Assembly: GCA_964347265.1 (NCBI GenBank)
Contig: CAYFXV010000001.1
Location: 14,397 to 78,396, forward strand
DNA length: 64,000 nt
Reading direction: 5' to 3'
Origin: an uncultured archaeon
GTDB taxonomy: Archaea > Aenigmatarchaeota > Aenigmatarchaeia > Aenigmatarchaeales > Aenigmatarchaeaceae
Part shown: positions 9,399 to 57,256 of the stretch, one piece after another
How positions within the stretch are numbered: position 1 is the stretch's first letter
Layout of the letters: every line of letters starts with the position of its first letter
Position numbers and translations under genes: made by a program
Notes under the pieces: generated by a model
The model's database searches: none
Seen by the model: the letters and a program-made list of their open reading frames with translations, nothing else
Told to the model about the DNA's origin: nothing

Positions 9399-11189
9399 AT
9401 GAAAACCCAAGCAAATGTTTTGTTTGAAGTAGCTTTTGAGGTATGCAACAAAGTTGGAGGAATATATGCTGTTATAGAGTCAAAAGCTGCCCGAATGGTT
9501 GAATTATATAAAAATAATTACTTTGCTGTAGGACCTTATTATCCTGAAAGAGCTATTCTAGAAACCATAAAACAAAAACCTCCAAAATTTTGTGAAAAGG
9601 TTTTTTCTAGCTTAAATAAAAACGGAATTAAGTGTCATTATGGAAAGTGGATTGTAGAAGGAAAACCAAATGTCATACTAGTTGAATTTAATGATCTATT
9701 AGAAAAAGTTAATAATATAAAAACAGAATTATGGAAAAAATATAAAGTTGATTCTTGGGGAACTAAGTTTGATTTTGAAGAACCTGTTGCTTGGTCAACA
9801 GCTGCTGGAATGCTAATAGAAAAACTTTTTCCATGTTTTGAAAATAAAAATGTTGTTGCTCATTTTCATGAATGGTTATCAGGAGCAGCTTTATTATATC
9901 TAAAAGATAAAGTCCCTACTGTTTTTACCACACATGCAACAATGTTAGGAAGAACAATAGCTGGATGGGGAGAAGATTTGTATAAAGAGGTTAATGATGC
10001 AATTTATACTAATACTCCTTTAGATCCAAAAAGACCTCACAAATATGGAGTTCAAGCAAAACACCAAATGGAAAAAGCTTGCGCTGAAAATTGTACTATT
10101 TTTTCAACAACATCTGAAATAACATCCAAAGAAGCAATCTACATACTAGGAAAAATACCTGATATAATATTACCAAATGGTTTAGATATAGAAAGATTTC
10201 CTACAATGGAAGAGTTTGCTTTATTACACAGAAAATACAGAGAAAAAATCAAGCATTTTCTAAGTGCCTATTTTAATCCTTATTATGAAACAGATTTGTG
10301 GGATGCAATGGTTTTTTTCACATCTGGAAGATATGAATTCAGAAATAAAGGATATGATGTTCTAATAGAAGCTTTAGGAAAATTGAATGAAAGAATGAAA
10401 AAAGAAAAAATTAAAAAAAATATTTTTGTTTTCTTCTATGTTCCTAGAGGCGATATTAAAGATAATATTGAAATCATGGAAAGTACTCAATTATATGATG
10501 ATATGAGAGAAACCGTAGACGATGAATTGCCTTGGATAGAAGAAATGATTTTGGATTCGCTTGCAAAAGGCAAAATGCCAAAAATGAGAGTTATACTTAA
10601 AAAAGAGTTTTTAGAGGAATGTAAAAGAAAAATAGCTGCCTTTAAAAGAAAAGGCAATCCTCCTTTTTCTGCATATATTGTTGATGAAGATGATTTAATT
10701 GTAAATGCTTTTAAGGAAAACAGGCTCTTGAATAGAATTGATGATAAAGTTAAAGTAATATTTTATCCTTCTTATTTATCAACAACAGACAGATTATTAG
10801 GATTAAACTATGAACAAGCTGTTCAAGGTTCTCATTTAGGCGTGTTTCCTTCATATTATGAGCCTTGGGGATATACCCCCCTTGAGTGTGCTGCAAATGG
10901 TGTTTTGTCTATAACTTCTGATTTTGCTGGCTTTGGAATATTTATTAAACAGAATTCTGATCAAAGTAAAAACCCTGGAATAGGGGTTTTAGAAAGAGAT
11001 AGCAAAAGTCGTGAAGAAGTTATTGAAAAATTATATGAAATGTTATGGAACATTGTTATTATGTCTAGAAAAGAAAGAATACCTAAGAAAGCTCAAGCAA
11101 AAGACTTAGCTTCACTAGCTGATTGGAAAATATTAATTAAAAATTATGTTCAAGCACATAACATGGCTTTAGAAAGATTTAAGAAATAA
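9399..11189 (+). CDS. Glycogen synthase, GT3 (eukaryote-type) family.
   Basis: 596 aa. N-terminal LFEVAFEVCNKVGGIYAVIESKA closely matches the fungal/animal glycogen synthase N-terminus (LFE.A.EV.N.VGGIY.V..SKA). HFHEWLSGAALLYLK matches the HFHEW block. Confidence 0.7.
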   Translation: MKTQANVLFEVAFEVCNKVGGIYAVIESKAARMVELYKNNYFAVGPYYPERAILETIKQKPPKFCEKVFSSLNKNGIKCHYGKWIVEGKPNVILVEFNDLLEKVNNIKTELWKKYKVDSWGTKFDFEEPVAWSTAAGMLIEKLFPCFENKNVVAHFHEWLSGAALLYLKDKVPTVFTTHATMLGRTIAGWGEDLYKEVNDAIYTNTPLDPKRPHKYGVQAKHQMEKACAENCTIFSTTSEITSKEAIYILGKIPDIILPNGLDIERFPTMEEFALLHRKYREKIKHFLSAYFNPYYETDLWDAMVFFTSGRYEFRNKGYDVLIEALGKLNERMKKEKIKKNIFVFFYVPRGDIKDNIEIMESTQLYDDMRETVDDELPWIEEMILDSLAKGKMPKMRVILKKEFLEECKRKIAAFKRKGNPPFSAYIVDEDDLIVNAFKENRLLNRIDDKVKVIFYPSYLSTTDRLLGLNYEQAVQGSHLGVFPSYYEPWGYTPLECAANGVLSITSDFAGFGIFIKQNSDQSKNPGIGVLERDSKSREEVIEKLYEMLWNIVIMSRKERIPKKAQAKDLASLADWKILIKNYVQAHNMALERFKK

Positions 11190-11195
11190 AAATTC

Positions 11196-11591
11196 TCAAG
11201 CTCTCATATCAGGAAGTTCCGGTAATCGAACACTTAAAGATCTAGTAGGTATTCTATTCATTATCATTCTGTTTAGGTTTTTAATAGTTATTATTTCTTT
11301 TAATCTCCTACTGGTTTTAAATGGAACAGCATGATATACTCTTCTAGGTTTTTCATTATCCAGATGTCCTTTTTTTGAACTAACATAACCTTTTTCTTCT
11401 AAAGTGTGTAATAATGGATAAATTTCAGAGGGACTAAAAAGAACTCCATACTTTTCTCTAAAATCGGTAAGAAGCTTATAACCATGAGTGGGTTCTTTCA
11501 ATATATTTCTTAAAAATATTTCTTCCATATTGGCCTTCAAATCTTTTCTAACTAATTGTTTTATTGTTTCCATTCTCGATATTGTTTCCAT
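11196..11591 (-). CDS. PadR-family transcriptional regulator.
   Basis: 131 aa. THGYKLLTDF...YPLLHTLEEKGYV is a PadR wHTH signature. Confidence 0.65.
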   Translation of the reverse strand: METISRMETIKQLVRKDLKANMEEIFLRNILKEPTHGYKLLTDFREKYGVLFSPSEIYPLLHTLEEKGYVSSKKGHLDNEKPRRVYHAVPFKTSRRLKEIITIKNLNRMIMNRIPTRSLSVRLPELPDMRA

Positions 11592-11679
11592 ATTTTGTCA
11601 CCAATTAATAGTCATAATACTATTATGGAATAAATTGTAGAAAAAGAAAATTTACCCTTACGGCAGTAAAAAATACTTA

Positions 11680-12114
11680 TTAGTATTTTTTCAAATGTCC
11701 ATGAATATACTTCTCAAATATTGTAAGAAATACTAATTTATCTCTTCCAGTATTAATAACTCTATGATACTTGTTAGGGAGAACTGTAACCAAATCTCCT
11801 TTTTTAACATTAATCTTCTTCTTATCAACAATTATATATCCTCTACCTTTCAAAAAAATATAAACTTCTTCAGCATTGTGTTTGTGTCCCCTAGTCATTT
11901 TAAATTCAGAATTGACTTTTCCAGGATATAGAAAATTCATACAAACCATAAGTCTTTTCAAACCAGTTTTTTTAACAGGCAAGTCAATTAAAACTTCGTT
12001 AATATCGTTTTTATGACCTTTAATGTTTTTGTAGATATTTTTACCTTTTTCGATCGCGTCTTTAACTTTCATTTTTAATGTCTTACCTTTGAACTTATTG
12101 ATGTTAAATTTCAT
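11680..12114 (-). CDS. Cupin-domain protein, probably a cupin-type glucose-6-phosphate isomerase (cPGI).
   Basis: 144 aa. MTRGHKHNAEEVYIFLKG matches the cPGI signature T.GH.H....E.Y. It sits beside the TIM and FBPA/P genes. Confidence 0.5.
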   Translation of the reverse strand: MKFNINKFKGKTLKMKVKDAIEKGKNIYKNIKGHKNDINEVLIDLPVKKTGLKRLMVCMNFLYPGKVNSEFKMTRGHKHNAEEVYIFLKGRGYIIVDKKKINVKKGDLVTVLPNKYHRVINTGRDKLVFLTIFEKYIHGHLKKY

Positions 12115-12779
12115 TTCATCCCCATTATTAATTCTTCCATAGCTTTTTCAACATTTCCTGCTTTGACTACACCAGAAGCTAATATAACTCCTTTTGTTCC
12201 AAGTTCAATTGCTTTTTTAACATCTTCTCTTGTTTTAATCCCTGCTCCGCAAAGAACATAGGTTCTTGGTGAAATTTTCTTAACATCATTAACAGATTTT
12301 TTTATTATTTCTGGTTTAGCAGTTGAAACAGAAACATCACCTCCAATTAATTCTGGAGGTTCAATTGCAATAAAATCTGGTTTAAATTCTGCTATTTTTT
12401 TTACTTCATTATTATCTTTAGCACAAACAATCGACACTAATTCATATTCTTCACATAAGTCAACACATTTCTTAATATCTTCATGCGGAATCCTTCTTTC
12501 AGAATGATTTATTATAGAACCGACTCCGCCTAATTCCTTTACTTCTTTAGGAAGCAAAGCTCCTGTATGTGCACCTGGTTCATAAGGATCTAGATGTTGA
12601 GAAATAGTTGAAGTAATTTTGGCAACTTCATTTAACAAAGGAGTAGGCGGTGCAATTAAAATAGTTACATTATATTTATTAGACAACTCTTTAGCAACTT
12701 CTGCAAACTTTATAGGCTTTTCTCCAAGAACTTGTTCATACTCTTTCAAATTTATTATTAATATAGGAAGTTTCATCAT
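12111..12779 (-). CDS. tpiA: Triosephosphate isomerase (archaeal short type).
   Basis: 222 aa. It has the INHSERR motif, the GAGIKT phosphate-binding region and typical archaeal TIM length. Confidence 0.85.
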   Translation of the reverse strand: MMKLPILIINLKEYEQVLGEKPIKFAEVAKELSNKYNVTILIAPPTPLLNEVAKITSTISQHLDPYEPGAHTGALLPKEVKELGGVGSIINHSERRIPHEDIKKCVDLCEEYELVSIVCAKDNNEVKKIAEFKPDFIAIEPPELIGGDVSVSTAKPEIIKKSVNDVKKISPRTYVLCGAGIKTREDVKKAIELGTKGVILASGVVKAGNVEKAMEELIMGMK

Positions 12780-13870
12780 ATATCCTGGAATCTATTTTTT
12801 AGTTTTTCCTTTACTGCAGGTAAGGTTGTGTATTCCATTTCATCTGCACCTAACCTATGTGGTTCGAATGGTCCTTGTCTTCTTAGAATATCTGCAATTT
12901 TTAATGCTTCTTGTCTAGCTTTGTCAAATGATTTATCCTTAAGCATGTCCCTTGATGTACCTAACATTCCATTGGCTAATTGAAAACCCAATGCCATAAC
13001 TCTTGGCGGTCCATCAAATCTTGAGGGCGTAGCATCTTCAACAGCCACAGGCATTAAAGGACCGTGATGACTTCCTCTCATCCAACCAGCAACAATCCAT
13101 GGATGTGCAAATCCTTCTAAAACTTCTCCAACTGCTGGCAAACCATGTTGCGCTCTTACAAACATAACTGGATCATCTTTTCCAACATATTTTCCTGCAA
13201 TTAAACTTAATCTACTTGTAGATGTGGAAACTGCATACAATTTGTCTGAAGTTCTGTAAACATGTTTTATAACATATCTTCCAGGTTGTCCAATTAATGC
13301 TAACAAATCATAAATCTCTTCAGGACATTTTAATTCAACTTTTTTATTTTCTATAACATCATGAACCTCGAATGTAAATCCTCCATGCATATGAGGATCA
13401 ATAACTAGACCTGCTGTTGAGAATGGGTCTGCAAACATTTTGTATAATGGAATATTCCATGCTCCTGGCTCTGTTTTATCTGCCATAAAAATAATAACTG
13501 GTTCTGATTTTCTTTCTTCGAATTCCAGTTCTGCAACACCTGGTCCCATTCCTTTTAGATTCCCTGAGAAAGTATCTTTTAATAAATCTTGACCAGCTCC
13601 ATAAAGTTTTAGTTCTTTAGCTTTTTCTGTGCATTTTTTAAAAGTATTCCAAGCCATAGCATGCACATCTTTATTATCAACACCATGTTGATGAGTCATT
13701 ATTAGTTGTAAATCATCTCCACATCCTGTAACATAAAAATCTATTAAAAAACCTTTGTTTTTCTCGTCTTGAAGAATGTTTCTTGCCATTTCAAGAATTT
13801 CTGGATGACTTGAAGAATGTCCAACGTATCCTCCTATGTCAGCTTTGATAACACTTAGCGTAATTTTCAT
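12776..13870 (-). CDS. fbp: Bifunctional fructose-1,6-bisphosphate aldolase/phosphatase (FBPase class V).
   Basis: 364 aa. N-terminal MKITLSVIKADIGGYVGHSSSHPE...DDLQLIMTHQHG is highly characteristic of archaeal FBPA/P. A TATA-like TTTATATTA lies about 25-35 nt upstream on the minus strand. Confidence 0.9.
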   Translation of the reverse strand: MKITLSVIKADIGGYVGHSSSHPEILEMARNILQDEKNKGFLIDFYVTGCGDDLQLIMTHQHGVDNKDVHAMAWNTFKKCTEKAKELKLYGAGQDLLKDTFSGNLKGMGPGVAELEFEERKSEPVIIFMADKTEPGAWNIPLYKMFADPFSTAGLVIDPHMHGGFTFEVHDVIENKKVELKCPEEIYDLLALIGQPGRYVIKHVYRTSDKLYAVSTSTSRLSLIAGKYVGKDDPVMFVRAQHGLPAVGEVLEGFAHPWIVAGWMRGSHHGPLMPVAVEDATPSRFDGPPRVMALGFQLANGMLGTSRDMLKDKSFDKARQEALKIADILRRQGPFEPHRLGADEMEYTTLPAVKEKLKNRFQDI

Positions 13871-13913
13871 ACATTACAAATTGTAGAGGTTTAATATAAA
13901 GATTTCACAAAAA

Positions 13914-13940
13914 TGTGCGGAGGGCAGGATTTGAACCTGC
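13914..13940 (-). repeat. 27-nt tRNA 3'-end fragment (T-arm plus 3' acceptor strand), copy 1 of a direct repeat.
   Basis: The minus strand reads GCAGGTTCAAATCCTGC-CCTCCGC-A, a canonical T stem-loop plus 3' acceptor strand. No complementary 5' acceptor (GCGGAGG) lies upstream, so this is not an intact tRNA. Confidence 0.6.
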
Positions 13941-13992
13941 TGAAAAAGACAACCTACGGTTTTCTTCCTTAACCATCTTTCCCTTCATAAAA

Positions 13993-14454
13993 TCATTTTT
14001 TATTAATTAATACTTCCAATTCTCTTAAAGATAAACCGTCTTCTCTATAATGGGGAAAACCTTTTTCTTCTGCAAATTTCATAGCTTCGAATAATTCTCT
14101 ACCAAATCCTCTTAAAACAGTTGTTAAATCAGTATCTCTTTCATCGTTTATTCTATATCTTTTTGAAGCCCAATGCAAAAATTTATCTTTTATTCTACCA
14201 AAAGATGAAGTTTTTACATCTTTTACAATATGAGAAAGTTCTGAAGCTAAAACACCTTTTTTAACCGATTCGCTTGCAGATTTTACTGTTTCATCAACCT
14301 CTAGAAAAAATCCTTCTGGATCTAATTCTCCATATTCTGCTAAAGCATCACCTAATTTCTTATATTCTATTTGTATATCACAATCTAATAAATCTATGTA
14401 TCCTTTTATTATTACTGTGTCTAAAAGTCGTCTTAGTTTTCCCATAATTTTCAA
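13993..14454 (-). CDS. Hypothetical protein flanked by the tRNA 3'-end repeats.
   Basis: 153-aa ORF with no recognisable motif. It lies exactly between the two 27-nt repeat copies. Confidence 0.4.
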   Translation of the reverse strand: MKIMGKLRRLLDTVIIKGYIDLLDCDIQIEYKKLGDALAEYGELDPEGFFLEVDETVKSASESVKKGVLASELSHIVKDVKTSSFGRIKDKFLHWASKRYRINDERDTDLTTVLRGFGRELFEAMKFAEEKGFPHYREDGLSLRELEVLINKK

Positions 14455-14514
14455 TAGAATACTAATCTTTAAATCACTTTTGCTGCCCTCAAGTCAGCGG
14501 TGAAGAACATGAGC

Positions 14515-14541
14515 TGTGCGGAGGGCAGGATTTGAACCTGC
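14515..14541 (-). repeat. 27-nt tRNA 3'-end fragment, copy 2 of the direct repeat.
   Basis: Identical 27-mer TGTGCGGAGGGCAGGATTTGAACCTGC on the + strand. As with copy 1, no 5' half is adjacent. Confidence 0.6.
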
Positions 14542-14601
14542 GAACCCATTACTAGAGCAATACAAATATATTAAAGTACAAAGTATTCTTATTAGAGAAA
14601 A

Positions 14602-16071
14602 ATGTTTGATTCAATAAAATTTGTTAAGGACAATAAAACTGTTTACAAAATTCTAATTAATGGAAGATGGAAAGAATCTTCTAATAAAAAAACTTTTGGA
14701 ATAAAAAACCCAGCCGACGGATCATTAATAGCAGAAGTTCAGAAAGCTACTAAAAAAGACGCTGAAAATGCTGTTAAAGCTGCCTTTAATGCAAAATCAA
14801 AAATAGCAAACATGGATGCTTCTGAAAGAGGAGACATTTTAGATAAAATGGGAAATTTATTAGAACAACACAAAGAAGAATTCATAGACATTATTTGTAA
14901 GGAGTCTGGAAAAACAAGAAAACTAGCTCAAGGAGAACTTCATGCTTCAATAGGAAGACTACATTATGCATCTGATGAAGCAAAAGAAATAAGAGGAGAA
15001 CTAATAAAAGGAGATATTGCAGGTAAAAGAAATTCAATGGGAATTGTTATTAGACAACCTTTAGGAGTTTTATTAGCTATAACACCATTTAATTATCCTT
15101 TGTTTACAGGAATTGCAAAAATAGCTCCTGGAATAGCAATTGGAAACTCAATTGTGGTTAAACCTGCAAGCGCTGATCCTATATGCTTGTTAATGTTTGC
15201 AAAAATTATGCAAGAAGCAGGAATACCAGATGGTGTAGTAAATATAGTTACAGGTTCAAGTTCAGAAATAGGAGATTATTTGTGTTCTCATCCTAAGATT
15301 GATATGATTTCATTTACAGGAAGCAGTGCAGTTGGAAAACATATAACATCTATTGCTGGAATGAAAAAATTACATTTAGAATTAGGAGGAAAAGCACCAG
15401 CAATTGTTTTAGAAGATTGTAACTTTGATATAGCTGTTAAAGAAGTTGCAATTGGTTCTTTAAAGTTCTCAGGCCAAAGATGCGATTCAATAAGTAGGGT
15501 GTTAGTTGTAGAACCAATAGCTGATAAATTTGTTAATGCCATGTTAGAAGAAATTAAAAAATGGAAACTTGGAAACCCTAGAGATCCTGAGACTGTTGTT
15601 GGGCCTTTAATAAATGAAGCTGCTGCCAAAAAAGTTGAGGAATTAGTTAATGATGCTGTTAAAAAGGGTGCAAAACTTTTATATGGTGGGAAAAAATATG
15701 ATCGTGGATATTTTGAACCAACAGTTCTAGATTTTGTTAATAGAGATATGAGAATTGCTTGGGAAGAAACATTTGGACCTGTGGTTACGATTATAAGAGT
15801 TAAAGATTATGAAGAAGCAATTAAACTTGCAAATGAATCTGAATATGGATTAGATGCTTGTATATTTACAAAAGATATTGATAAAGCATTTGATGCTGCG
15901 CAAAGAATTGAAGCTGGTTCTGTTCATATAAATGCTCATCCAACTCATGGTTTAGGAGTGTTCCCATTTGGTGGAGATGAAAGCTCTGGAGTAGGAAGAG
16001 AAGGAATTAAATATAGCATAGAAGATATGTCAAAAGTTCATGTTATGGTTTTGCATTCTCACAAAGAATGA
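14602..16071 (+). CDS. Aldehyde dehydrogenase family protein, probably a non-phosphorylating glyceraldehyde-3-phosphate dehydrogenase (GAPN).
   Basis: 489 aa with ALDH motifs ELGGKAP and FSGQRCDS (catalytic Cys). The GAPN assignment rests on the glycolytic neighbourhood. The internal minus ORF 15288..15629 is spurious. Confidence 0.7.
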   Translation: MFDSIKFVKDNKTVYKILINGRWKESSNKKTFGIKNPADGSLIAEVQKATKKDAENAVKAAFNAKSKIANMDASERGDILDKMGNLLEQHKEEFIDIICKESGKTRKLAQGELHASIGRLHYASDEAKEIRGELIKGDIAGKRNSMGIVIRQPLGVLLAITPFNYPLFTGIAKIAPGIAIGNSIVVKPASADPICLLMFAKIMQEAGIPDGVVNIVTGSSSEIGDYLCSHPKIDMISFTGSSAVGKHITSIAGMKKLHLELGGKAPAIVLEDCNFDIAVKEVAIGSLKFSGQRCDSISRVLVVEPIADKFVNAMLEEIKKWKLGNPRDPETVVGPLINEAAAKKVEELVNDAVKKGAKLLYGGKKYDRGYFEPTVLDFVNRDMRIAWEETFGPVVTIIRVKDYEEAIKLANESEYGLDACIFTKDIDKAFDAAQRIEAGSVHINAHPTHGLGVFPFGGDESSGVGREGIKYSIEDMSKVHVMVLHSHKE

Positions 16072-17124
16072 TTATTTCATTTTAAAATTTAATATTTCAT
16101 CTGGAGTTAATGCTTTGTTATAAATTCTAAATGAATCTATTATTCCATTAAAAGCCTCTCCAGCACTTGAAGGTATAGCACCTATACCAAAATCATTTGT
16201 CATATCCATTACATAATTATATGAACCGGTTTCAACAGACTTTCCATTTCTGTATATTATCCAATTTCCTGTTATGGTTTCGTATGTCATAACAAAATGT
16301 GTCCAAATATCATAACCCCAACCACTCGACCATACAGACATAGCTGACCAAGTTGTTCCATCACCTAAATAACAATACATAGTTGTGGAACCAGAAAAGA
16401 AATAACATGTACTAAAATATCTAGAAAGGAAAGGTCGTTGCATACTACCTTTTTCTCTCATATTAAACCAGAATTCTATTGTAAAACCATCTGGAAAATT
16501 CCCAAATTTATTTATTGCTACATAATCATCTATTCCATCAAATTCTAAAGCCTTACCAAATTTACCATTAACCCATTTGGGACATTCAGAAGTAGGGGGG
16601 TCTGAACAAATAGTAGTATAATCATATAATGTTCCATCATTTTCATATCCAGATTTATCATGTGCAATTGTTCCTCTACCTTCATCAAAATCTAAAGCTA
16701 AAAGAGCAGAATTATGTAAAAGAGATTCTACTCTCTGAACAATTTGTAAACTTGGATTAGATATTTTTAAGTCATAATCTCCTATACTTATTCCTAATAT
16801 ATCAACTGTTATAGTTCCTATTTCTCCTTTTCTTATAGTTTCAGGTGTCATGTTAAATTCAAGAGGTTCATCATCCAAGAAAACATTTAAACTGTCATTA
16901 ACTATTACTCCGCTTCCACAATTTTTTATATAAATATTATTTTTATGGATTGAATCTACTATCATACAAGTAGAGAGAATCTCTCTTGTTCTTGTTGTTC
17001 TTTCAGTTCCAGATTCTGTTAATTCTTTTACTGTCCCAAAAGTAAATAACCAAAAAAGGGTTGTTAGGAATATTAAAATTAACAAGACTAATAGTAATGT
17101 TACAATCGCTGAAAGACCACGCAT
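16072..17124 (-). CDS. Type IV pilin-like protein with a LamG/concanavalin-like lectin domain.
   Basis: 350 aa. N-terminal MRG/LSAIVTLLLVLLILIFL resembles an archaeal class III (prepilin) signal peptide. The C-terminal region (DGIDDYVAINKFGNFPDGFTIEFWFN...) is LamG-like. Confidence 0.5.
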   Translation of the reverse strand: MRGLSAIVTLLLVLLILIFLTTLFWLFTFGTVKELTESGTERTTRTREILSTCMIVDSIHKNNIYIKNCGSGVIVNDSLNVFLDDEPLEFNMTPETIRKGEIGTITVDILGISIGDYDLKISNPSLQIVQRVESLLHNSALLALDFDEGRGTIAHDKSGYENDGTLYDYTTICSDPPTSECPKWVNGKFGKALEFDGIDDYVAINKFGNFPDGFTIEFWFNMREKGSMQRPFLSRYFSTCYFFSGSTTMYCYLGDGTTWSAMSVWSSGWGYDIWTHFVMTYETITGNWIIYRNGKSVETGSYNYVMDMTNDFGIGAIPSSAGEAFNGIIDSFRIYNKALTPDEILNFKMK

Positions 17125-34649: not shown

Positions 34650-34686
34650 TAAAATATTAATTTAATTCTAACAATTAGTTTTTTAT

Positions 34687-34758
34687 GCGCCGATAGTCTA
34701 ATGGTTAGGACATCAGCTTCCCAAGCTGACGATCTGGGTTCGAATCCCGGTCGGCGCA
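34687..34758 (+). tRNA. tRNA-Gly (anticodon CCC).
   Basis: Manual fold: acceptor GCGCCGA/TCGGCGC, anticodon stem TCAGC/GCTGA with loop TTCCCAA, T-arm CTGGG-TTCGAAT-CCCGG. Confidence 0.8.
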
Positions 34759-34812
34759 TCATTCTTGACGGGATGAGAAACTGATATAAATCAGGAATAT
34801 AAGCTAATTTAT

Positions 34813-35286
34813 ATGAAGAAACCATTTGAAATAGGTTTTAGTTTTGGTCTAACTTCTGGAATAATAACAACTCTTGGGTTAATGGTAGGTCTGCATTCTG
34901 GTACTCACTCAAAACTTGCAGTTATCGGAGGTATACTAACAATAGCAGTAGCAGATGCATTTTCAGACTCATTAGGTATGCATATTTCTGAAGAATCTGA
35001 AAAAAAGAAAACAAAAGATATATGGGAATCAACAATTTCTACTTTTCTATCAAAATTCTTTTTTGCATTGACATTTATTATTCCGATTTTATTACTCGAA
35101 CTTTTAACAGCAATTTTAGTAAGTATAGTTTGGGGTCTATTAATGATAGGTATTCTTAGTTTTAGGATAGCTAAAAAACAAAAAGAAACAGCGTGGAAGG
35201 TAGTTGCAGAACATTTGATTATAGCATTGGTAGTTATAGTTATAACTCATTATGTGGGTGATTGGATATCATTAACATTTGGTTAG
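34813..35286 (+). CDS. VIT1/CCC1-family membrane protein (iron/manganese transporter-like).
   Basis: 157 aa. GLTSGIITTLGLMVGLHSGT...AVADAFSDSLGMHISEESE resembles the VIT family (DUF125). Confidence 0.55.
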   Translation: MKKPFEIGFSFGLTSGIITTLGLMVGLHSGTHSKLAVIGGILTIAVADAFSDSLGMHISEESEKKKTKDIWESTISTFLSKFFFALTFIIPILLLELLTAILVSIVWGLLMIGILSFRIAKKQKETAWKVVAEHLIIALVVIVITHYVGDWISLTFG

Positions 35287-35309
35287 TCGAATCCCGGTCG
35301 GCGCATCAT
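35287..35309 (+). repeat. 23-nt direct repeat of the tRNA-Gly 3' end (att-like).
   Basis: TCGAATCCCGGTCGGCGCATCAT is identical to 34740..34762 (the tRNA-Gly T-loop/acceptor plus 4 nt downstream). It directly follows the VIT gene's stop. Confidence 0.65.
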
Positions 35310-43921: not shown

Positions 43922-46246
43922 TTATTGCGGAGGTGCAATTGCCAATTGTAAGCTTCGTGATTGTGTATTCAAATATCTGTAGTCAGTCAATCCTACTATC
44001 AAACTAGTTTTACTATCAACATCTGCAGGTAAAGCATCGGGTTTTATGAAAAAGGAAACTCTCTTGAATTCTTGAGATTCTATATCTCTACCATGGGTGC
44101 ATGTTATTACATAAAATCCAGAGGGGTTTGTAACTTCGCAACTATCAAAACTGTAATATAAGTCCGAATTAGATAAATTATCAATCAAATTATCAGGAAC
44201 TTTAATTACGAATTTCGCTTGTTTTATTATACCCGTACCTTCATTAAGAAGAGAAGCTATAACAATGTTCGTTTCATCGCTTCTTAATGGCTGTTTCCTA
44301 GAAATTAATGTTGCCTTAACAGGACCTCCAGTATAATAAGATGTCAATTCTTTTATTACTATTTGTTTGTTTTTAAGCAAATCCATGTATAAGCCCGTAT
44401 CCATAACATCAATTGGTATGGATACATTAACTTTATAATTATAAGTCAAATTAGCATTTACTTTAAATAATGTGGTAGCATAAGTATAGGTTGTACCTGG
44501 AACACAAGGAGCTGGATTACCATCTACATCGAGACATTGTCCTCCCAAATCAAGTGTTCCATTAGTCCAAGAATCTTCTTTATAAATAAATGAAGCTACT
44601 TCTATCTCACTTGGATATGTAACATCACTCCAAGTACAAGTGGATCCTGAACCACTACCACGACCACATTCTATTTCAGTAATAGATCCAACATCAGATA
44701 TTTTTGCTGTAACAGGATCTGTCCAAGTTGCATAAATCTCTAATGTTGAAGCTCCGAAAACAGAAGGATCTGATTGATATTCTCCTTTGTTAGTAAGTTC
44801 TATAAAACCTATTGTTGGTTCACTTGGTTCCAAAGTTCCAGGTATAGATGTATAAATATCAAAGCCTGTAAATTCGAGGGATAGTATTGTTCCTGTTGGT
44901 ATGCTTTTTGCTACTTGTATTTTTTGTTGTTGCAATAAATAGTATTGTTGAGGATTAGTCAATAACAACCAACTATCTGATAATCCGCTTTGGGCTTGTG
45001 CTAGAAGAACATTTAATGGGCTCAAATATGTTTCACCAAAACCTTGAACTTGGGGCCACCACACTCCGAATATTGCACTACCAACAAAACCTGTGTATGT
45101 AGTTGAAAATATGAACAATGATATCAAAATTACTATAACTCCAACAGCTGGTCTTGCTTCTGGTCCAGCTGTTGCACCTGAAAACAAGGAAAAAAACCAA
45201 ACAACTGAAAACAATACCACATTCACATCAGAAATATCAAAAGCAAAAGGTCCGAAAGGTTGAAAGAACGTAAAGAGAGCCCCAATCATAACAAGTGAAA
45301 AAATTAATGATTCTGCAGCTCTACCTTTTTTTGAAAGACTTAAATTTATTGTTATTACACCGCCTTCTTCTTCAATATGAGTAGGAATTGCTATAAAAAA
45401 TGCTGCAGACATCAAACCTAATGGCCAACTTAAAGGACCAGCAAAAGTTGAAGAAATTTGAAATGCTAAATAAATACCAAGAACTAATCTTACCCATGCT
45501 AATATAAGCTTATATGGTTGACTAGTCTTGTATCGGAATGGTAAGTTGAAATAAAATATAAATCCAAAAACTAAAGCTAGCATACGGTTCAAAGTAAAAA
45601 AGTCCAATAGTATGAAAAAGAATGCAACTAATTTGGCGAAAGCTTTTACTGTCAAAAAGCCCATAGCTCCACCACTTATCTGTTCCCCTCGTCCGACTTC
45701 ACTGACAATACTACGTTCTGAAGGAAAAACAGAATGAATTGCAATAAAAACAAACCCTATTGCTAAATATGTTCTAGGAGGTATACCAAAGAATGGTGGA
45801 ATAATTATAGAACATGCTGCGGCTATTATATAAATGAGAATTTGAAAAAATTTAAGTTGTGTTCCTTTTCCTGCTATTTCTGCGATAGTTCTAAAGCTAG
45901 GTTTTTTTACTTTAGAAGATGTTGGTCTTCCTTTTGTATAAGCTATGTCCTCTCCTTCCTGAGTCTTTGTTAATGCATGACCTCTCATTTTTTTAAAAAA
46001 ACTAACTAATCCAGTATCTCCCGCTGCTTCTGCTTGTTTTTGCCTTTCCATTGCATAACTTATGTTTGCACCACTATAGGCTTTTCTAACTGCTGTATTA
46101 AAATCTACTCCTTTTGCAGTATACTCATCTATTTTTTGTAACATATACAAATATCTTTGTTTTTTCGCATCTGAAAGATCATCTCTAGAAGCTTGTTTAA
46201 AAATATAATTATATAATTTTTTGTAATCTGTTTTCTTTGTTGCCAT
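43922..46246 (-). CDS. Large polytopic membrane protein: ~130-aa cytoplasmic N-terminus, 8-10 TM helices and a ~380-aa extracytoplasmic C-terminal domain.
   Basis: 774 aa. The hydrophobicity pattern is readable from the sequence, and no known family motif was recognised. The + ORF 43745..43951 overlaps this gene's 3' end and is spurious. Confidence 0.45.
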   Translation of the reverse strand: MATKKTDYKKLYNYIFKQASRDDLSDAKKQRYLYMLQKIDEYTAKGVDFNTAVRKAYSGANISYAMERQKQAEAAGDTGLVSFFKKMRGHALTKTQEGEDIAYTKGRPTSSKVKKPSFRTIAEIAGKGTQLKFFQILIYIIAAACSIIIPPFFGIPPRTYLAIGFVFIAIHSVFPSERSIVSEVGRGEQISGGAMGFLTVKAFAKLVAFFFILLDFFTLNRMLALVFGFIFYFNLPFRYKTSQPYKLILAWVRLVLGIYLAFQISSTFAGPLSWPLGLMSAAFFIAIPTHIEEEGGVITINLSLSKKGRAAESLIFSLVMIGALFTFFQPFGPFAFDISDVNVVLFSVVWFFSLFSGATAGPEARPAVGVIVILISLFIFSTTYTGFVGSAIFGVWWPQVQGFGETYLSPLNVLLAQAQSGLSDSWLLLTNPQQYYLLQQQKIQVAKSIPTGTILSLEFTGFDIYTSIPGTLEPSEPTIGFIELTNKGEYQSDPSVFGASTLEIYATWTDPVTAKISDVGSITEIECGRGSGSGSTCTWSDVTYPSEIEVASFIYKEDSWTNGTLDLGGQCLDVDGNPAPCVPGTTYTYATTLFKVNANLTYNYKVNVSIPIDVMDTGLYMDLLKNKQIVIKELTSYYTGGPVKATLISRKQPLRSDETNIVIASLLNEGTGIIKQAKFVIKVPDNLIDNLSNSDLYYSFDSCEVTNPSGFYVITCTHGRDIESQEFKRVSFFIKPDALPADVDSKTSLIVGLTDYRYLNTQSRSLQLAIAPPQ

Positions 46247-52155: not shown

Positions 52156-52269
52156 TGGGCGAGGTGAGATTTGAACTCACGACCTCCAGTATTTACAGAA
52201 CGCAGCCACAAAAAATGACTAACGTCATTTTATAAGACTGGCGCTCTAACCAAACTAAGCTACCCGCCC
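52156..52269 (-). tRNA. Intron-containing tRNA. The anticodon is TAT (tRNA-Ile) if the intron is at the canonical 37/38 position.
   Basis: Reverse complement: acceptor GGGCGGG/CTCGCCC, D-arm GCTT..GAGC, anticodon stem CCAGT/ACTGG enclosing CTTATA plus a ~39-nt insert (with hairpin ATGAC-GTTA-GTCAT), T-arm GTGAG-TTCAAAT-CTCAC. Confidence 0.65.
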
Positions 52270-55327: not shown

Positions 55328-55397
55328 TTTTCCCATTTTTTCTTTTTCTTAAACTTTTATATAGAGGTTTTGATACAATTTTACTTAGGAGAACAAT

Positions 55398-55841
55398 ATG
55401 AAAGGAATATCCACAATATTGGCAATGATATTGATTGTTATCATAGTTGTTGCTTTGATAGGATTGACTTATACTTTTGCAGTAGGACTATTTGGAACAG
55501 CAACAGCAGGAGCTACTGAACAAACAGCAGCAGTTACAGAAAGATTGCAGAAAAGTGTTGCTATAGTTGCATCAAGTTGTAGTATATCTGGAGCTAATGC
55601 TACTTATCGTTTTACACTTAAGAATACAGGAACAATGACTGTTGAAGCTGCTTCATTAAAAGCTTTTGTAGATGGAACTCTAATTCAAGGAGCATCATTT
55701 GAAGATATACCTAAAGGACAAATTGATACACAGGAAAGAGCATTTACAAATGAAACGGCATCTCAAGGAACAGCAATAACTCATACTCTAAGAATTGCAG
55801 CACCTGCAGGAGAAGTAGATTCTTCAGTAACTTGTCAATAA
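55398..55841 (+). CDS. Archaeal type IV pilin-like protein with a class III signal peptide.
   Basis: 147 aa. MKG/ISTILAMILIVIIVVALIGL is an N-terminal prepilin-like signal with a hydrophobic helix. The remainder is Thr/Ala-rich. Confidence 0.6.
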   Translation: MKGISTILAMILIVIIVVALIGLTYTFAVGLFGTATAGATEQTAAVTERLQKSVAIVASSCSISGANATYRFTLKNTGTMTVEAASLKAFVDGTLIQGASFEDIPKGQIDTQERAFTNETASQGTAITHTLRIAAPAGEVDSSVTCQ

Positions 55842-55878
55842 AAAACATTTATATAGAAGCTTCAGCAAAACTATAGTT

Positions 55879-56397
55879 ATGCCAGAAGAAGATGTAGCTT
55901 ATGAAATAATACCAGTAACTCCTATCAAGAAACTAGAAGAAAGAATAGAAAAGATAGAAACAACAAGAACAACGCCCGATCTGCAGAATTTAATAAATCA
56001 GATAATAGAATTAATAAGAAACAATCAAAAAATTGTAAATGATGTTATCCAAGCAAATGCAGATTTAAAAAATGAACTTTCTAAGTTACCTTCTAAAATT
56101 GACGAATTATTAACTACTATAAATAATTTTCTTTCTTTAGTAGAGGCTGCTGGAAGAGAAGAGGTAGCAGCTAAACCCCCAGAACCCAAACCTGATGTAT
56201 TTAAACTAATGGTTGAAGAATTAAAGAAAATTTCTGAACAAAATAAAAAACTCATAGAAAGCAACCAATCTGTTCTTGAAGAACTAGATAAAATGAGCAA
56301 AAGAGTTAAGTCAAAAGGAGCAGCAGGCATGCCTGTTTCAACATTATTGTCCACATATCCTTTAAGAAAAGACATAAAAAAACCTGAACAAACATGA
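55879..56397 (+). CDS. Coiled-coil protein within the pilus locus (accessory protein, unknown).
   Basis: 172 aa, predicted helical, with a central Pro-rich linker. Internal minus ORF 56025..56375 is spurious. Confidence 0.4.
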   Translation: MPEEDVAYEIIPVTPIKKLEERIEKIETTRTTPDLQNLINQIIELIRNNQKIVNDVIQANADLKNELSKLPSKIDELLTTINNFLSLVEAAGREEVAAKPPEPKPDVFKLMVEELKKISEQNKKLIESNQSVLEELDKMSKRVKSKGAAGMPVSTLLSTYPLRKDIKKPEQT

Positions 56398-56834
56398 AAG
56401 GTATAAGCGCGATAATTGCAATAATTTTGATTTTGATGATAGTTGTTGCTTTGGCTGCTTTAGCATATACATGGTTTACTGGGATATTTGCTAGTTTGAC
56501 TACGAGTGCTGCTAATGCAACTACAACAGCTACAACAGCAATGGGAATGCAAATTAGAATAGAGGCTGCAAAATTTTTTGAAACACCATCTCATCAAGTT
56601 AATGCTACAATCAGAAACACAGGAACTGTAGATGTTGATCCAAACAAATTTGGAGTTTATATAGATGGAAGCCTTCACACAAGTACATATTATGATTCAG
56701 AACCATCTACCAAAATACCACCTGGAGGAACTGTAACTATCAATATCACAAACACCACAGCTGCATGCCCAAACAAAGTATTAAAAGTATCAATAGAAAC
56801 TGGTTTAGACGATTATAAAACAATAACTTGTTGA
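56394..56834 (+). CDS. Type IV pilin-like protein (paralog 1).
   Basis: 146 aa. The N-terminus MKG/ISAIIAIILILMIVVALAALAYTWFTGIFA is identical to the next gene's. Confidence 0.65.
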   Translation: MKGISAIIAIILILMIVVALAALAYTWFTGIFASLTTSAANATTTATTAMGMQIRIEAAKFFETPSHQVNATIRNTGTVDVDPNKFGVYIDGSLHTSTYYDSEPSTKIPPGGTVTINITNTTAACPNKVLKVSIETGLDDYKTITC

Positions 56835-56839
56835 TAAAC

Positions 56840-57256
56840 ATGAAAGGTATAAGCGCGATAATTGCAATAATTTTGATTTTGATGATAGTTGTTGCTTTGG
56901 CTGCTTTAGCATATACATGGTTTACTGGGATATTTGCTGGTTTGACTGGTGGTGCAGAAACTGCAGTAGAAGCTACTACCACAGCTATGGGAGTCAATTT
57001 TAGAATAGAAACAGCAAAAAATGTTACAGATGACGTATCAGTCACTATAAGAAATATTGGAACAAGCACAATAAATGTAAGTAAAATGACAGCTTATGTT
57101 GATGATGAAAAAGAAGAAATAACAGATATAGCAGACTCTATTTTAGATTATGGTGAAACGACAACTTTCTTTGTTAATAATACTGTTGAACCAAATGGAA
57201 AAAAATTAAAAATAGTAGCTGTAACTGGTTTAGAACAAACAGCAACAATTACTTAA
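56840..57256 (+). CDS. Type IV pilin-like protein (paralog 2).
   Basis: Start trimmed to MKGIS. The first ~100 nt are identical to paralog 1, and the C-terminal domain diverges. Confidence 0.65.
   Translation: MKGISAIIAIILILMIVVALAALAYTWFTGIFAGLTGGAETAVEATTTAMGVNFRIETAKNVTDDVSVTIRNIGTSTINVSKMTAYVDDEKEEITDIADSILDYGETTTFFVNNTVEPNGKKLKIVAVTGLEQTATIT

What the first reader, a model, noticed from the sequence alone, without database searches (positions are those of the whole stretch)
13914..14541. Two identical 27-nt tRNA 3'-end fragments flanking a single 153-aa ORF, with no intact parent tRNA
TGTGCGGAGGGCAGGATTTGAACCTGC occurs twice in direct orientation, at 13914..13940 and 14515..14541. On the minus strand each reads as a perfect T-arm (GCAGG-TTCAAAT-CCTGC) plus 3' acceptor strand CCTCCGC-A. 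Neither copy has a matching 5' acceptor (GCGGAGG), D-arm or anticodon arm upstream. The copies bracket the hypothetical gene 13993..14454 exactly. This pattern fits duplicated att cores left by integrative elements that targeted a tRNA gene located elsewhere. It equally fits 3' halves of split or trans-spliced tRNA genes of the kind known in Nanoarchaeota. The two alternatives are easy to tell apart.
Basis: seen in the sequence. Interest (0 to 1): 0.55.

Follow-up and report, generated by a model that had tools for sequence, protein, structure and literature searches.

The report
Integrase-less gene cassette flanked by tRNA-Leu ends
The two identical 27-base pieces are copies of the tail of a leucine tRNA gene left as recombination scars around a small, swappable one-gene cassette, one member of a family of such cassettes that sit behind tRNA genes in tiny (DPANN-type) archaea; they are not halves of a split tRNA.

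Summary
The 27-mer occurs exactly twice, at 13914-13940 and 14515-14541, and no tRNA finder folds either locus. Read on the minus strand it is the last 25 nt of archaeal tRNA-Leu (T-arm, 3' acceptor strand, A73) plus 2 nt. The repeats bound a 0.6-kb single-gene cassette with conserved ends. The left arm is CATGTTCTTCAC..GAGGGCAGC followed by a TATA-like promoter. The right arm ("Rmot") is GGAAAGATGGTTAAGGAAGAAAACCGTAGGTTGTCTTTTT. About 30 other archaeal loci carry the same arms, next to 3' ends of tRNA-Leu, Gly, Lys, His and Thr, with unrelated cargo genes and sometimes in tandem arrays. The closest related genome has the same flanking genes but a different cargo, and homology breaks exactly at the two repeats. 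A second cassette lies in this window behind an intact tRNA-Gly(CCC), with a 23-nt repeat at 34740 and 35287. No cassette encodes an integrase. Full-length elements with a self-partitioning ("suicidal", SSV-style) integrase occur in the same kind of samples, and the cassette arms weakly resemble the 5' end of such an integrase gene. Best reading: att-site duplications of a non-autonomous cassette mobilised in trans. The split-tRNA reading is not supported. Cargo ORF: a small zincin-like metallopeptidase homologue lacking one zinc ligand.

The parts
14515..14541 (-). Copy 2 of the 27-nt core (attL-like). It consists of the tRNA-Leu T-arm, the 3' acceptor strand, A73 and 2 further nt.
   Evidence: Exact match. 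Identical to the 3' end of intact tRNA-Leu genes. Homology with relative L025 resumes exactly here.
14542..14558 (-). Remnant of the tRNA-Leu variable arm (gctctagtaatgggttc). With copy 2 it forms a 5'-truncated tRNA-Leu pseudogene, and the AT-rich promoter region of the divergent GAPN gene abuts it.
   Evidence: TAATGGGTTC versus TAGTGGGTTC in the tRNA-Leu genes of L012, L018 and L036. Conserved in L025 but diverged in L070.
14482..14514 (-). Left arm, part 1: (CA)GCTCATGTTCTTCACCGCTGACTTGAGGGCAGC. It contains GAGGGCAG, the inverted complement of CTGCCCTC in the core.
   Evidence: Conserved after the tRNA 3' ends or cores in L052, L070, L053, L037, L047, L058, L071, L068, L061 and L064. Weak similarity to the first codons of int(C) in L085 and L086.
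14448..14474 (-). Left arm, part 2: ATTTAAAGATTAGTATTCTATTGAAAA, the presumed archaeal promoter of the cargo gene. The TATA-like TTTAAAG at 14473-14467 starts 28 nt before ATG 14445, which suggests a leaderless mRNA.
   Evidence: Identical in L037, 3 mismatches in L052, 6 in L047. The position relative to the ATG was read. The promoter function is inferred.
13993..14445 (-). Cargo gene, 150 aa (153 aa if started at TTG 14454). It is a zincin-like small metallopeptidase homologue in which SELSH replaces HEXXH.
   Evidence: Homologues P0002-P0010 at 45-65% identity, with no Pfam, PADLOC, PHROG or NCBIfam hit. AlphaFold2 pLDDT 90.5. Foldseek top PDB hits are the minigluzincins 4jiu, 4jix and 4qhf, followed by ZMPSTE24, BepA and Spartan.
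13941..13985 (-). Right arm ('Rmot'): AAGGGAAAGATGGTTAAGGAAGAAAACCGTAGGTTGTCTTTTTCA. It ends in a T5 run (a likely terminator of the cargo gene) and opens a short ORF, MKGKMVKEENRRLSFS, that reads into the core.
   Evidence: 100% identical in L037 and L075. Present in L024, L052 and 23 metagenome loci L057-L079, beside different tRNA 3' fragments.
13914..13940 (-). Copy 1 of the 27-nt core (attR-like). The conserved promoter region of the FBP aldolase/phosphatase gene follows.
   Evidence: Exact match. Homology with L025 breaks inside it at 13922. L025 keeps GCAGG[13-nt deletion]CTCCGCA at the same place.
34686..35309 (+). Second cassette of the same kind in this window. It comprises an intact tRNA-Gly(CCC) at 34686-34760, the left arm cattcttgacgggatgag, a 157-aa VIT1-family membrane protein at 34813-35286, and a 23-nt exact repeat of the tRNA 3' end (34740-34762 and 35287-35309). 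It has no Rmot.

Best explanation
The two 27-mers are att-type direct repeats: the 3' end of a tRNA-Leu gene duplicated by site-specific recombination. They bound a 0.6-kb, single-gene, integrase-less cassette. The cassette sits at a pre-existing, 5'-truncated tRNA-Leu remnant between the GAPN and FBP aldolase/phosphatase genes. It belongs to a family of cassettes in DPANN-type archaea. Members share conserved sequences on both sides of the tRNA-derived core: Rmot on one side, and CATGTTCTTCAC..GAGGGCAGC plus a promoter on the other. Joined end to end, these sequences would make an attP-like junction of about 110-140 bp. Members carry one or a few unrelated accessory genes. Shown: the repeats, their tRNA-Leu identity, the conserved arms, the variable cargo, the breakpoints at the repeats, the tandem arrays and the absence of an integrase. 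Inferred: a tyrosine integrase supplied in trans moves the cassettes. The likely source is related full-length elements whose 'suicidal' integrase gene spans attP, and the arms are relics of the 5' end of such a gene.
For: (1) The repeat is the tRNA-Leu 3' end.
(2) The closest relative, L025, has the same flanking genes (86% and 92% identical). Between the cores it carries an unrelated 368-aa dCTP-deaminase-like gene. Homology breaks at 13922 and 14516. A third lineage (L070, L073) has yet other cargo at the same GAPN|FBPase site.
(3) L037 has an intact tRNA-Leu(GAG), a left arm that is partly identical, a different 125-aa ORF, and a right arm plus core that are 100% identical over 70 nt.
(4) Rmot occurs in 23 metagenome contigs beside 3' fragments of different tRNAs. 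An intact tRNA lies 0.5-1 kb upstream in L058/L069 (Gly), L067 (Thr), L071 (Lys) and L077 (His). Repeat lengths are 19-27 nt and all start in the T-loop or T-stem.
(5) Tandem junctions of the form Rmot-core-left arm occur in L024, L053, L058 and L068; L076 carries two Rmot-plus-fragment copies without the left arm after them.
(6) An empty site exists: tRNA-Leu(GAG) is followed directly by uppS in L002, whereas the same site is occupied in L052, L024 and L037.
(7) A second cassette lies in the window behind an intact tRNA-Gly.
(8) A homologue of the cargo gene (P0007) is itself a one-gene insert between tRNA-Ser and a degenerate copy of its 3' end.
(9) Complete elements of 4.5-5 kb occur in L085 and L086. 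In them the integrase ORF is split by integration into a tRNA, and 23-25-nt repeats start at the T-loop.
(10) Trans-excision of elements with partitioned integrases is a published model (PMC7253208, PMC8371274).
Against: No integrase was found in any cassette or in the 64-kb window, although the window was screened only with a crude motif regex. No circular or free form was found: there were 0 hits in viral contigs. At this locus neither end is an intact tRNA, so the original target and the way the remnant arose are unknown. The similarity of the arms to int(N) and int(C) is weak (about 12/17 nt, and 5-6 of 12 residues) and the reading frames differ. The covariation of the inverted repeat with tRNA type is only modest (mean 6.5 versus 4.7 nt). 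Exchange of cargo by ordinary homologous recombination between the conserved arms would give the same polymorphism.
Confidence: 0.72

Rival explanations
1. Recombination hotspot without a dedicated recombinase. The tRNA-derived cores and the conserved arms act only as patches of homology. Cargo genes are swapped or duplicated by the host's homologous recombination, including uptake of foreign DNA carrying the same arms.
For: No integrase lies in or near any cassette. The arms are long enough (45-70 nt, up to 100% identical between genomes) to support homologous exchange. Three lineages carry different cargo at one chromosomal site.
Against: It does not explain how the same right arm came to lie beside 3' ends of five different tRNAs, each matching the tRNA just upstream. 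It also does not explain why every repeat starts in the T-loop or T-stem and ends at the tRNA 3' end, as att cores of tRNA-targeting integrases do. Complete elements with partitioned integrases and the same repeat geometry exist.
Confidence: 0.17
2. The fragments are 3' halves of split (trans-spliced) tRNA-Leu genes, as in Nanoarchaeota. Each is joined at the RNA level to a 5' half encoded elsewhere.
For: Both copies have a perfect T-arm and 3' acceptor strand. Both are preceded by AT-rich, TATA-like sequence, and copy 1 is followed by a T-run. A related Nanoarchaeum MAG locus (L052) has a longer fragment that starts near position 37, the classical split point.
Against: Copy 1 lacks a variable arm and an anticodon-stem strand. 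Its upstream 45 nt are an element arm shared with Gly, Lys, His and Thr fragments. Copy 2 starts in the variable arm and has only A/T upstream, with no GC-rich leader. No 5' half lies in the 64 kb. In relatives the fragments decay where a tRNA could not tolerate it: a 13-nt deletion in L025, a broken T-stem in L070, and a lost core in L073. The closest relative has intact tRNA-Leu(GAG) and tRNA-Leu(CAA) genes.
Confidence: 0.03
3. Target-site duplications made by a transposase or casposase that inserts at tRNA 3' ends.
For: Casposons and some other elements are known to insert at tRNA 3' ends, including tRNA-Leu, and to leave direct repeats (my own knowledge of the casposon literature, not checked here).
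Against: Repeat length varies from 19 to 27 nt among family members. There are no terminal inverted repeats. No Cas1 or transposase gene is present in any cassette.
Confidence: 0.03
4. The tRNA-like hairpin works at the RNA level, as a 3' end or stability element or a processing signal for the cargo mRNA.
For: Copy 1 lies just downstream of the cargo stop codon and a T5 run, and its T-arm can fold.
Against: In most family members the fragment starts inside the T-loop and cannot form the hairpin. The folds are no more stable than shuffled sequence (z = -0.5 and -0.9). There is no Rfam hit.
Confidence: 0.03

Closest known systems
Integrative elements with SSV-type ('suicidal') integrases, and the 'gene capture' they cause in archaeal chromosomes (reviewed in PMC8371274; PMC7253208)
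   Same: They target the 3' part of a tRNA gene. Their direct repeats equal the tRNA 3' end. The att site lies inside the 5' end of the integrase ORF, so a short int(N) ORF runs into the core at one end. Integrated copies become trapped and need an integrase supplied in trans to excise. Complete examples with this geometry were found here in related samples (L085, L086).
   Different: The cassette has no int(C) and no catalytic domain at all. It is only about 0.6 kb with one cargo gene and its own promoter. The same two arms recur with many cargos and with several tRNA cores, and in arrays. The associated full-length integrases hit Pfam PF00589 rather than PF16795, and they come from sediment or groundwater metagenomes rather than hyperthermophiles.
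Non-autonomous integrative elements mobilised in trans, such as the cis-mobilisable elements (CIMEs) of streptococcal ICEs and IMEX elements that use host Xer (my own knowledge, not checked here)
   Same: They are bounded by att sites, lack a recombinase, accrete in tandem at a tRNA or dif site, and depend on a recombinase encoded elsewhere.
   Different: Those are bacterial, and their arms are not derived from the integrase gene itself. The cassettes here are far smaller and regularly single-gene.
Integron gene cassettes
   Same: Single-ORF units lie in tandem arrays, separated by a recombination-site junction, with very diverse accessory cargo.
   Different: There is no IntI or attI platform. 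The junction is conserved in sequence rather than being an attC hairpin. Each cassette has its own promoter. The primary site is a tRNA 3' end.
Split tRNA genes of Nanoarchaeota, and the model in which mobile elements disrupt and scatter tRNA fragments (Sugahara et al. 2012, PMC3293823)
   Same: An orphan tRNA fragment lies far from any intact copy. [quoted passage not shown]
   Different: The fragment here shows no sign of being used as a tRNA half: no leader, no anticodon-stem strand, and decay in relatives.

Membership tests
tRNA-targeted site-specific integrative element (att duplication) | Direct repeats identical to the 3' part of a tRNA gene bound the insert | tested here: met
   The 27-nt exact repeat equals the tRNA-Leu 3' end.
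tRNA-targeted site-specific integrative element (att duplication) | The insert is absent or different in related genomes, with breakpoints at the repeats | tested here: met
   Window versus L025: homology ends at 13922 and resumes at 14516, with unrelated cargo between. Empty versus occupied tRNA-Leu(GAG)-uppS site in L002 versus L052, L024 and L037.
tRNA-targeted site-specific integrative element (att duplication) | One end is an intact, functional target tRNA | tested here: not met
   ARAGORN and Rfam find no tRNA at either copy. The feature is met in sister cassettes: window tRNA-Gly 34686-34760, L037, L058, L071 and L077.
tRNA-targeted site-specific integrative element (att duplication) | The element encodes its own integrase | tested here: not met
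   The only ORF is a zincin-like protein. No integrase was found in about 30 cassette loci.
tRNA-targeted site-specific integrative element (att duplication) | Recombination at the repeats (excision or integration) is demonstrated | not testable with these tools
   This needs reads of circular junctions or an in vitro assay.
SSV-type ('suicidal') integrase element | attP lies inside the int ORF: int(N) ends in the core at one end, and int(C) follows the tRNA in frame at the other | tested here: inconclusive
   A short ORF, MKGKMVKEENRRLSFS-AGSNPALRT, runs into copy 1. After copy 2 the frame reads AHVLHR* and stops. The resemblance to int(N) and int(C) of L085 and L086 is weak.
SSV-type ('suicidal') integrase element | Tyrosine-recombinase catalytic domain | tested here: not met
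   None in the cassette. It is present in the full-length relatives L080, L085 and L086 as PF00589.
Split / trans-spliced tRNA gene | The 3' half runs from the split point (usually 37/38) through the anticodon-stem 3' strand to the 3' end | tested here: not met
   Copy 1 is tRNA-like only from position 49. Copy 2 is tRNA-like only from the variable arm.
Split / trans-spliced tRNA gene | A GC-rich leader is complementary to the trailer of a 5' half, and a 5' half exists | tested here: not met
   The upstream sequences are AT-rich promoter or element arm. There is no GCGGAGG-D-arm piece in the 64 kb. The whole genome was not available.
Split / trans-spliced tRNA gene | Stems are kept by selection in relatives | tested here: not met
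   L025 copy 1 has a 13-nt deletion. The T-stem 5' strand is mutated in L070. L073 has lost the core.
Integron cassette array | IntI integrase with attI, and attC hairpin sites between promoterless cassettes | tested here: not met
   No integrase is adjacent. The junction is conserved in sequence, with only a 6-9-nt inverted repeat. Each cassette has a TATA-like promoter.
Transposon / casposon target-site duplication | Fixed-length duplication, terminal inverted repeats and a transposase | tested here: not met
   The duplications are 19-27 nt long, with no terminal inverted repeats and no Cas1 or transposase.

The most novel reading that the evidence does not exclude
DPANN-type archaea carry an integron-like gene-cassette system built from the wreck of a suicidal integrase gene. 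The 3' ends of tRNA genes serve as the primary insertion sites. A junction of about 110-140 bp (int(N) relic, tRNA core, int(C) relic) serves as the cassette recombination site. One-gene cassettes with their own promoters carry accessory and defence-like genes: NUDIX, HEPN, MNT-like nucleotidyltransferase, cytidine and dCTP deaminases, a small metallopeptidase homologue and VIT1. They are shuffled between tRNA sites and genomes by integrases supplied in trans by co-resident plasmid- or virus-like elements.
Probability: 0.35. Interest if true: 0.75.

Novelty: new variant of a known kind. Interest (0 to 1): 0.52.

Why it matters
Orphan tRNA fragments in archaeal genomes are routinely ambiguous between split-tRNA pieces and integration scars, and this case can be settled by comparison. 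More broadly, it exposes a recurrent, very small, integrase-less cassette with conserved recombination arms. The cassette moves unrelated accessory genes behind tRNA genes in genome-reduced archaea. If the trans-mobilisation is real, it is a compact route of gene exchange for organisms with few known mobile elements. It would also extend self-partitioning integrases to a PF00589-type family outside hyperthermophiles.

Tried and rejected
- tRNA finders and Rfam on the locus gave nothing beyond weak tmRNA/T-arm echoes.
- Folding each fragment with its flanks gave stabilities no better than shuffled sequence.
- GCGGAGG at 43927 was checked as a possible 5' half. It is a Shine-Dalgarno-like GGAGGTG after a TATA box, not a tRNA piece.
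- Permuted-tRNA and giant-intron readings of the 14541..13914 stretch were rejected because no 5' acceptor strand exists anywhere between or after the copies.
- Viral-contig scans for the right arm and for the 25-mer gave 0 hits.
- Exact look-up of the cargo protein's contig found nothing on record, so the source genome could not be retrieved.
- A regex for the tyrosine-recombinase box II motif found none in the window or the cassette loci. The test is crude.
- The inverted repeat between the core and the left arm at first looked like strong covariation with tRNA type. When quantified it is modest (6.5 versus 4.7 nt), and it may partly reflect conserved 'EG(I/L)' codons of an ancestral int(C). 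I do not rely on it.
- A first fuzzy-regex script timed out.
- L070 and L073 were first assumed to be overlapping halves of one locus. The 30 nt upstream of Rmot differ, so they represent at least two cargo variants in one sample.
Full report
**1. The observation**

The 27-mer TGTGCGGAGGGCAGGATTTGAACCTGC is present exactly twice, at 13914-13940 and 14515-14541. There is no third copy even at three mismatches, and none is expected by chance (repeat family D10). On the minus strand each copy reads GCAGG-TTCAAAT-CCTGC-CCTCCGC-A-CA. ARAGORN finds six tRNAs in the window, none of them here. Rfam finds seven, none here, and at E<=10 only weak tmRNA/T-arm echoes.

**2. Which tRNA the fragment comes from**

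A scan of one genome per species for the 25-mer (the repeat without the two trailing bases) gave 54 loci.

- In 35 of the 54 loci the match is the 3' end of a tRNA-Leu that ARAGORN detects, with anticodon GAG, UAG, CAG or CAA.
- Most of the remaining loci are intron-containing tRNA-Leu genes, or genes cut off by a contig end.
- The genomes are labelled Aenigmatarchaeota, Woesearchaeota, Nanoarchaeota, Thermoplasmata and others.

The fragment is therefore a tRNA-Leu tail. Copy 2 stays similar to tRNA-Leu for another 10-17 nt upstream, into the 3' side of the variable arm (TAATGGGTTC versus TAGTGGGTTC). Copy 1 does not.

**3. What lies between and around the copies**

On the minus strand the order is as follows.

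- Copy 2.
- A GC-richer stretch, CAGCTCATGTTCTTCACCGCTGACTTGAGGGCAGC.
- ATTTAAAGATTAGTATTCTATTGAAAA, with a TATA-like box 28 nt before ATG 14445.
- The ORF.
- AAGGGAAAGATGGTTAAGGAAGAAAACCGTAGGTTGTCTTTTTCA, called 'Rmot' here.
- Copy 1.
- The promoter and start of the FBP aldolase/phosphatase gene.

Upstream of copy 2 is the divergent GAPN-type aldehyde dehydrogenase gene.

**4. Comparison with other genomes**

*L037.* This Aenigmatarchaeota MAG has an intact tRNA-Leu(GAG) followed by the same promoter-like 27 nt. After that come a different 125-aa ORF, Rmot and the 25-mer again. The last 70 nt are 100% identical to the window.

*L025.* This is the closest relative found. It is syntenic on both sides, with 86% identity over 9477-13922 and 92% over 14516-16153. 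It has the same copy-2 remnant. Between the cores, however, it carries an unrelated 368-aa dCTP-deaminase-like gene. In place of copy 1 it has GCAGG[13-nt deletion]CTCCGCA. Homology thus breaks exactly at the two cores. That genome has intact tRNA-Leu(GAG) and tRNA-Leu(CAA) genes on other contigs (L032, L021).

*L070 and L073.* This third lineage has the GAPN|FBPase site occupied by yet other small ORFs. The T-stem 5' strand of its copy-2 equivalent is mutated, and the core after Rmot is missing.

*tRNA-Leu(GAG)-uppS site.* At this other site the empty state is seen in L002 and occupied states in L052, L024 and L037.

**5. A family of cassettes**

A metagenome scan for Rmot returned 23 contigs.

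- Rmot is followed there by 3' fragments of different tRNAs.
- In several contigs the matching intact tRNA lies 0.5-1 kb upstream in the same orientation: Gly(GCC) in L058/L069, Thr(UGU) in L067, Lys(CUU) in L071 and His(GUG) in L077.
- The repeats are 19-27 nt long. They start in the T-loop or at the T-stem and end at or just past the tRNA 3' end.
- The sequence after the intact tRNA shares CATGTTCTTCAC-like and GAGGG/GGGAT motifs and a TATA-like box.
- Junctions of the form Rmot-core-left arm between successive cassettes occur in L024, L053, L058 and L068; L076 carries two Rmot-plus-fragment copies, without the left arm after them.
- Orphan configurations like the window's, with fragments at both ends, also occur in L061 and L064.
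- The cargo is unrelated from case to case: NUDIX, an MNT-like nucleotidyltransferase, HEPN, a P-loop kinase-like protein, cytidine deaminase, a SAM methyltransferase, a zinc ribbon and membrane proteins.

**6. A second cassette in this window**

tRNA-Gly(CCC) at 34686-34760 is intact. It is followed by cattcttgacgggatgag and a 157-aa VIT1-family ORF. An exact 23-nt copy of its 3' end follows (34740-34762 and 35287-35309). This gives, in the same genome, the canonical arrangement of an intact tRNA plus a repeat.

**7. Where is the recombinase?**

None of the cassettes encodes one, and a crude motif screen of the window found none. However, a homologue of the window's cargo gene (P0007, 46% identical) is itself a one-gene insert, lying between tRNA-Ser(CGA) and a degenerate copy of that tRNA's 3' end. 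The next tRNA along, Gly(CCC), is fused in frame to a tyrosine integrase ORF.

A search with that integrase found close homologues whose N-termini are translated T-arms (GVQISP, GRVQIP, GSNPN). They sit about 12 codons before a conserved F/Y-L-D/E-x-L-x-x-x-G-L motif. These are int(C) halves of integrated elements.

Two complete integrated elements were delimited.

| Locus | Target tRNA | int(N) ORF | Direct repeat | Approximate size |
|---|---|---|---|---|
| L085 | His | 33 codons, running into the repeat | 25 nt | 5.2 kb |
| L086 | Glu | 33 codons, running into the repeat | 23 nt | 4.5 kb |

In both, int(C) follows the tRNA. This is the 'suicidal' SSV-style arrangement described in PMC8371274 and PMC7253208. 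Here, though, it occurs in a protein that hits only Pfam PF00589.

Rmot also opens a short ORF (MKGKMVKEENRRLSFS) that reads into the core in the 'GSNP' frame. The variable positions of Rmot fall mostly at third codon positions of that frame. After copy 2 the same frame reads AHVLHR*LEGS, and L058 reads HVLDWDKGI. For comparison, int(C) reads SHFFEQLNREGIG in L085 and SHFLLELDKLGLS in L086.

The resemblance is suggestive but weak, and the MAFFT alignment puts Rmot in a different frame from the L085 and L086 int(N). I therefore treat 'the arms are relics of the 5' end of a suicidal integrase gene' as an inference, not a result.

**8. Mechanism**

Site-specific recombination explains all of the following together:

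- direct repeats equal to a tRNA 3' end;
- variable repeat length;
- breakpoints at the repeats;
- empty and occupied sites;
- tandem junctions;
- the same arms beside different tRNA cores.

Because the cassettes lack an integrase, the enzyme must come from elsewhere. Excision of elements with partitioned integrases by a compatible integrase supplied in trans is an existing model (PMC7253208).

The main rival is exchange by ordinary homologous recombination across the conserved arms. That could account for the cargo polymorphism, but not for the association of one arm with five different tRNA cores.

Other readings fare worse.

- *Split tRNA halves.* They are disfavoured by the anatomy: no anticodon-stem strand, no leader and no 5' half. 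They are also disfavoured by the decay of the fragments in relatives.
- *Target-site duplication by a transposase.* The variable repeat length, the lack of terminal inverted repeats and the lack of a transposase speak against it.
- *An RNA-level role for the hairpin.* Most family members start inside the T-loop, and the folds are not unusually stable.

**9. The orphan state at this locus**

Copy 2 plus the variable-arm remnant is a 5'-truncated tRNA-Leu gene that predates the split of the window genome from L025. How it lost its 5' part is unknown. An older integration with a longer core, followed by rearrangement, is one possibility. Scattering of tRNA fragments by mobile elements has been proposed before (PMC3293823).

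**10. The cargo gene**

The 150-aa protein has ten homologues and no family assignment. A confident AlphaFold2 model (pLDDT 90.5) is closest to the archaeal minigluzincins abylysin, jannalysin and selecase. ZMPSTE24, BepA and Spartan come next (Foldseek E 0.02-0.5, probability about 1). Half of the homologues have HEXXH at the aligned helix. The window's clade has SELSH, so it may be a non-catalytic or altered variant.

**11. Novelty**

Integration scars at tRNA genes and suicidal integrases are both known. Four literature searches and two papers on archaeal integrases (a review and a primary study) did not turn up a description of this recurrent, about 0.5-1.5-kb, integrase-less, usually single-gene cassette with conserved arms at several tRNA types in DPANN-type archaea. 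I rate it a new variant of a known kind. The finding as originally posed is resolved in favour of the att-core reading.

Noticed in passing
window 34686-35309 (+): A second cassette of the same kind. An intact tRNA-Gly(CCC) is followed by a left-arm motif, a 157-aa VIT1-family membrane protein, and an exact 23-nt repeat of the tRNA 3' end (34740-34762 and 35287-35309). The same ORF is 86% identical in L078 10011-10494 but lacks these flanks there.
   Followed up: partly
L080 4296-5294; L085 4092-9341; L086 35-4533: Tyrosine integrases that hit only Pfam PF00589 are split by integration into tRNA-Gly, tRNA-His and tRNA-Glu. int(C) is fused to the tRNA, and a 33-codon int(N) plus a 23-25-nt repeat lies at the far end of elements of about 4.5-5 kb. 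This is a 'suicidal' arrangement outside the PF16795 families and outside hyperthermophiles.
   Followed up: partly
L006 5351-5660; L007, L009, L034, L039; L046 1-480: In Thermoplasmata MAGs an inverted copy of the tRNA-Leu 3' end (GTGCGGAGGGCAGG) lies 30-45 nt downstream of tRNA-Leu genes. L046 has a 182-bp unit repeated three times, each unit carrying that inverted copy and a perfect hairpin. L006 also has further direct and inverted T-arm fragments. The nature of these features is unknown.
   Followed up: no
L052 4210-4257 (-), also L062: In a Nanoarchaeum sp. MAG the leftmost fragment matches tRNA-Leu(GAG) from about position 37 to the 3' end, and no 5' half lies nearby. It could be a genuine split-tRNA 3' half or a longer att remnant. 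It is followed by the same left arm, a 139-aa ORF and Rmot without a core.
   Followed up: no
L001 4661-4770 and L020 153-260 (-): In an Asbonarchaeaceae MAG, tRNA-Leu genes appear to carry several introns, including a shared insert gctgactgcagcttga in the D-loop region, and ARAGORN misses them. Each is followed about 50 nt downstream by another T-arm/acceptor fragment.
   Followed up: no
window 52156-52269 (-): An intron-containing tRNA found by Rfam (59.9 bits) but missed by ARAGORN. Its 3' end is TTCAAATCTCACCTCGCCCA.
   Followed up: no
window 55395-57019 (+): Direct repeats D1 and D2 are the 5' ends of two or three paralogous genes. Each starts ATGAAAGG(A/T)ATA and encodes a hydrophobic stretch, which looks like archaeal class III (pilin-like) signal peptides.
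   Followed up: no
L070 11990-12041 and L073 9522-9706 (same metagenome, Ga0315296): Two contigs meet at Rmot of the GAPN|FBPase hotspot but differ in the 30 nt upstream of it. Many other contigs of the family also start or end at the core or at Rmot. This fits coexisting cargo variants or repeats breaking the assemblies.
   Followed up: no
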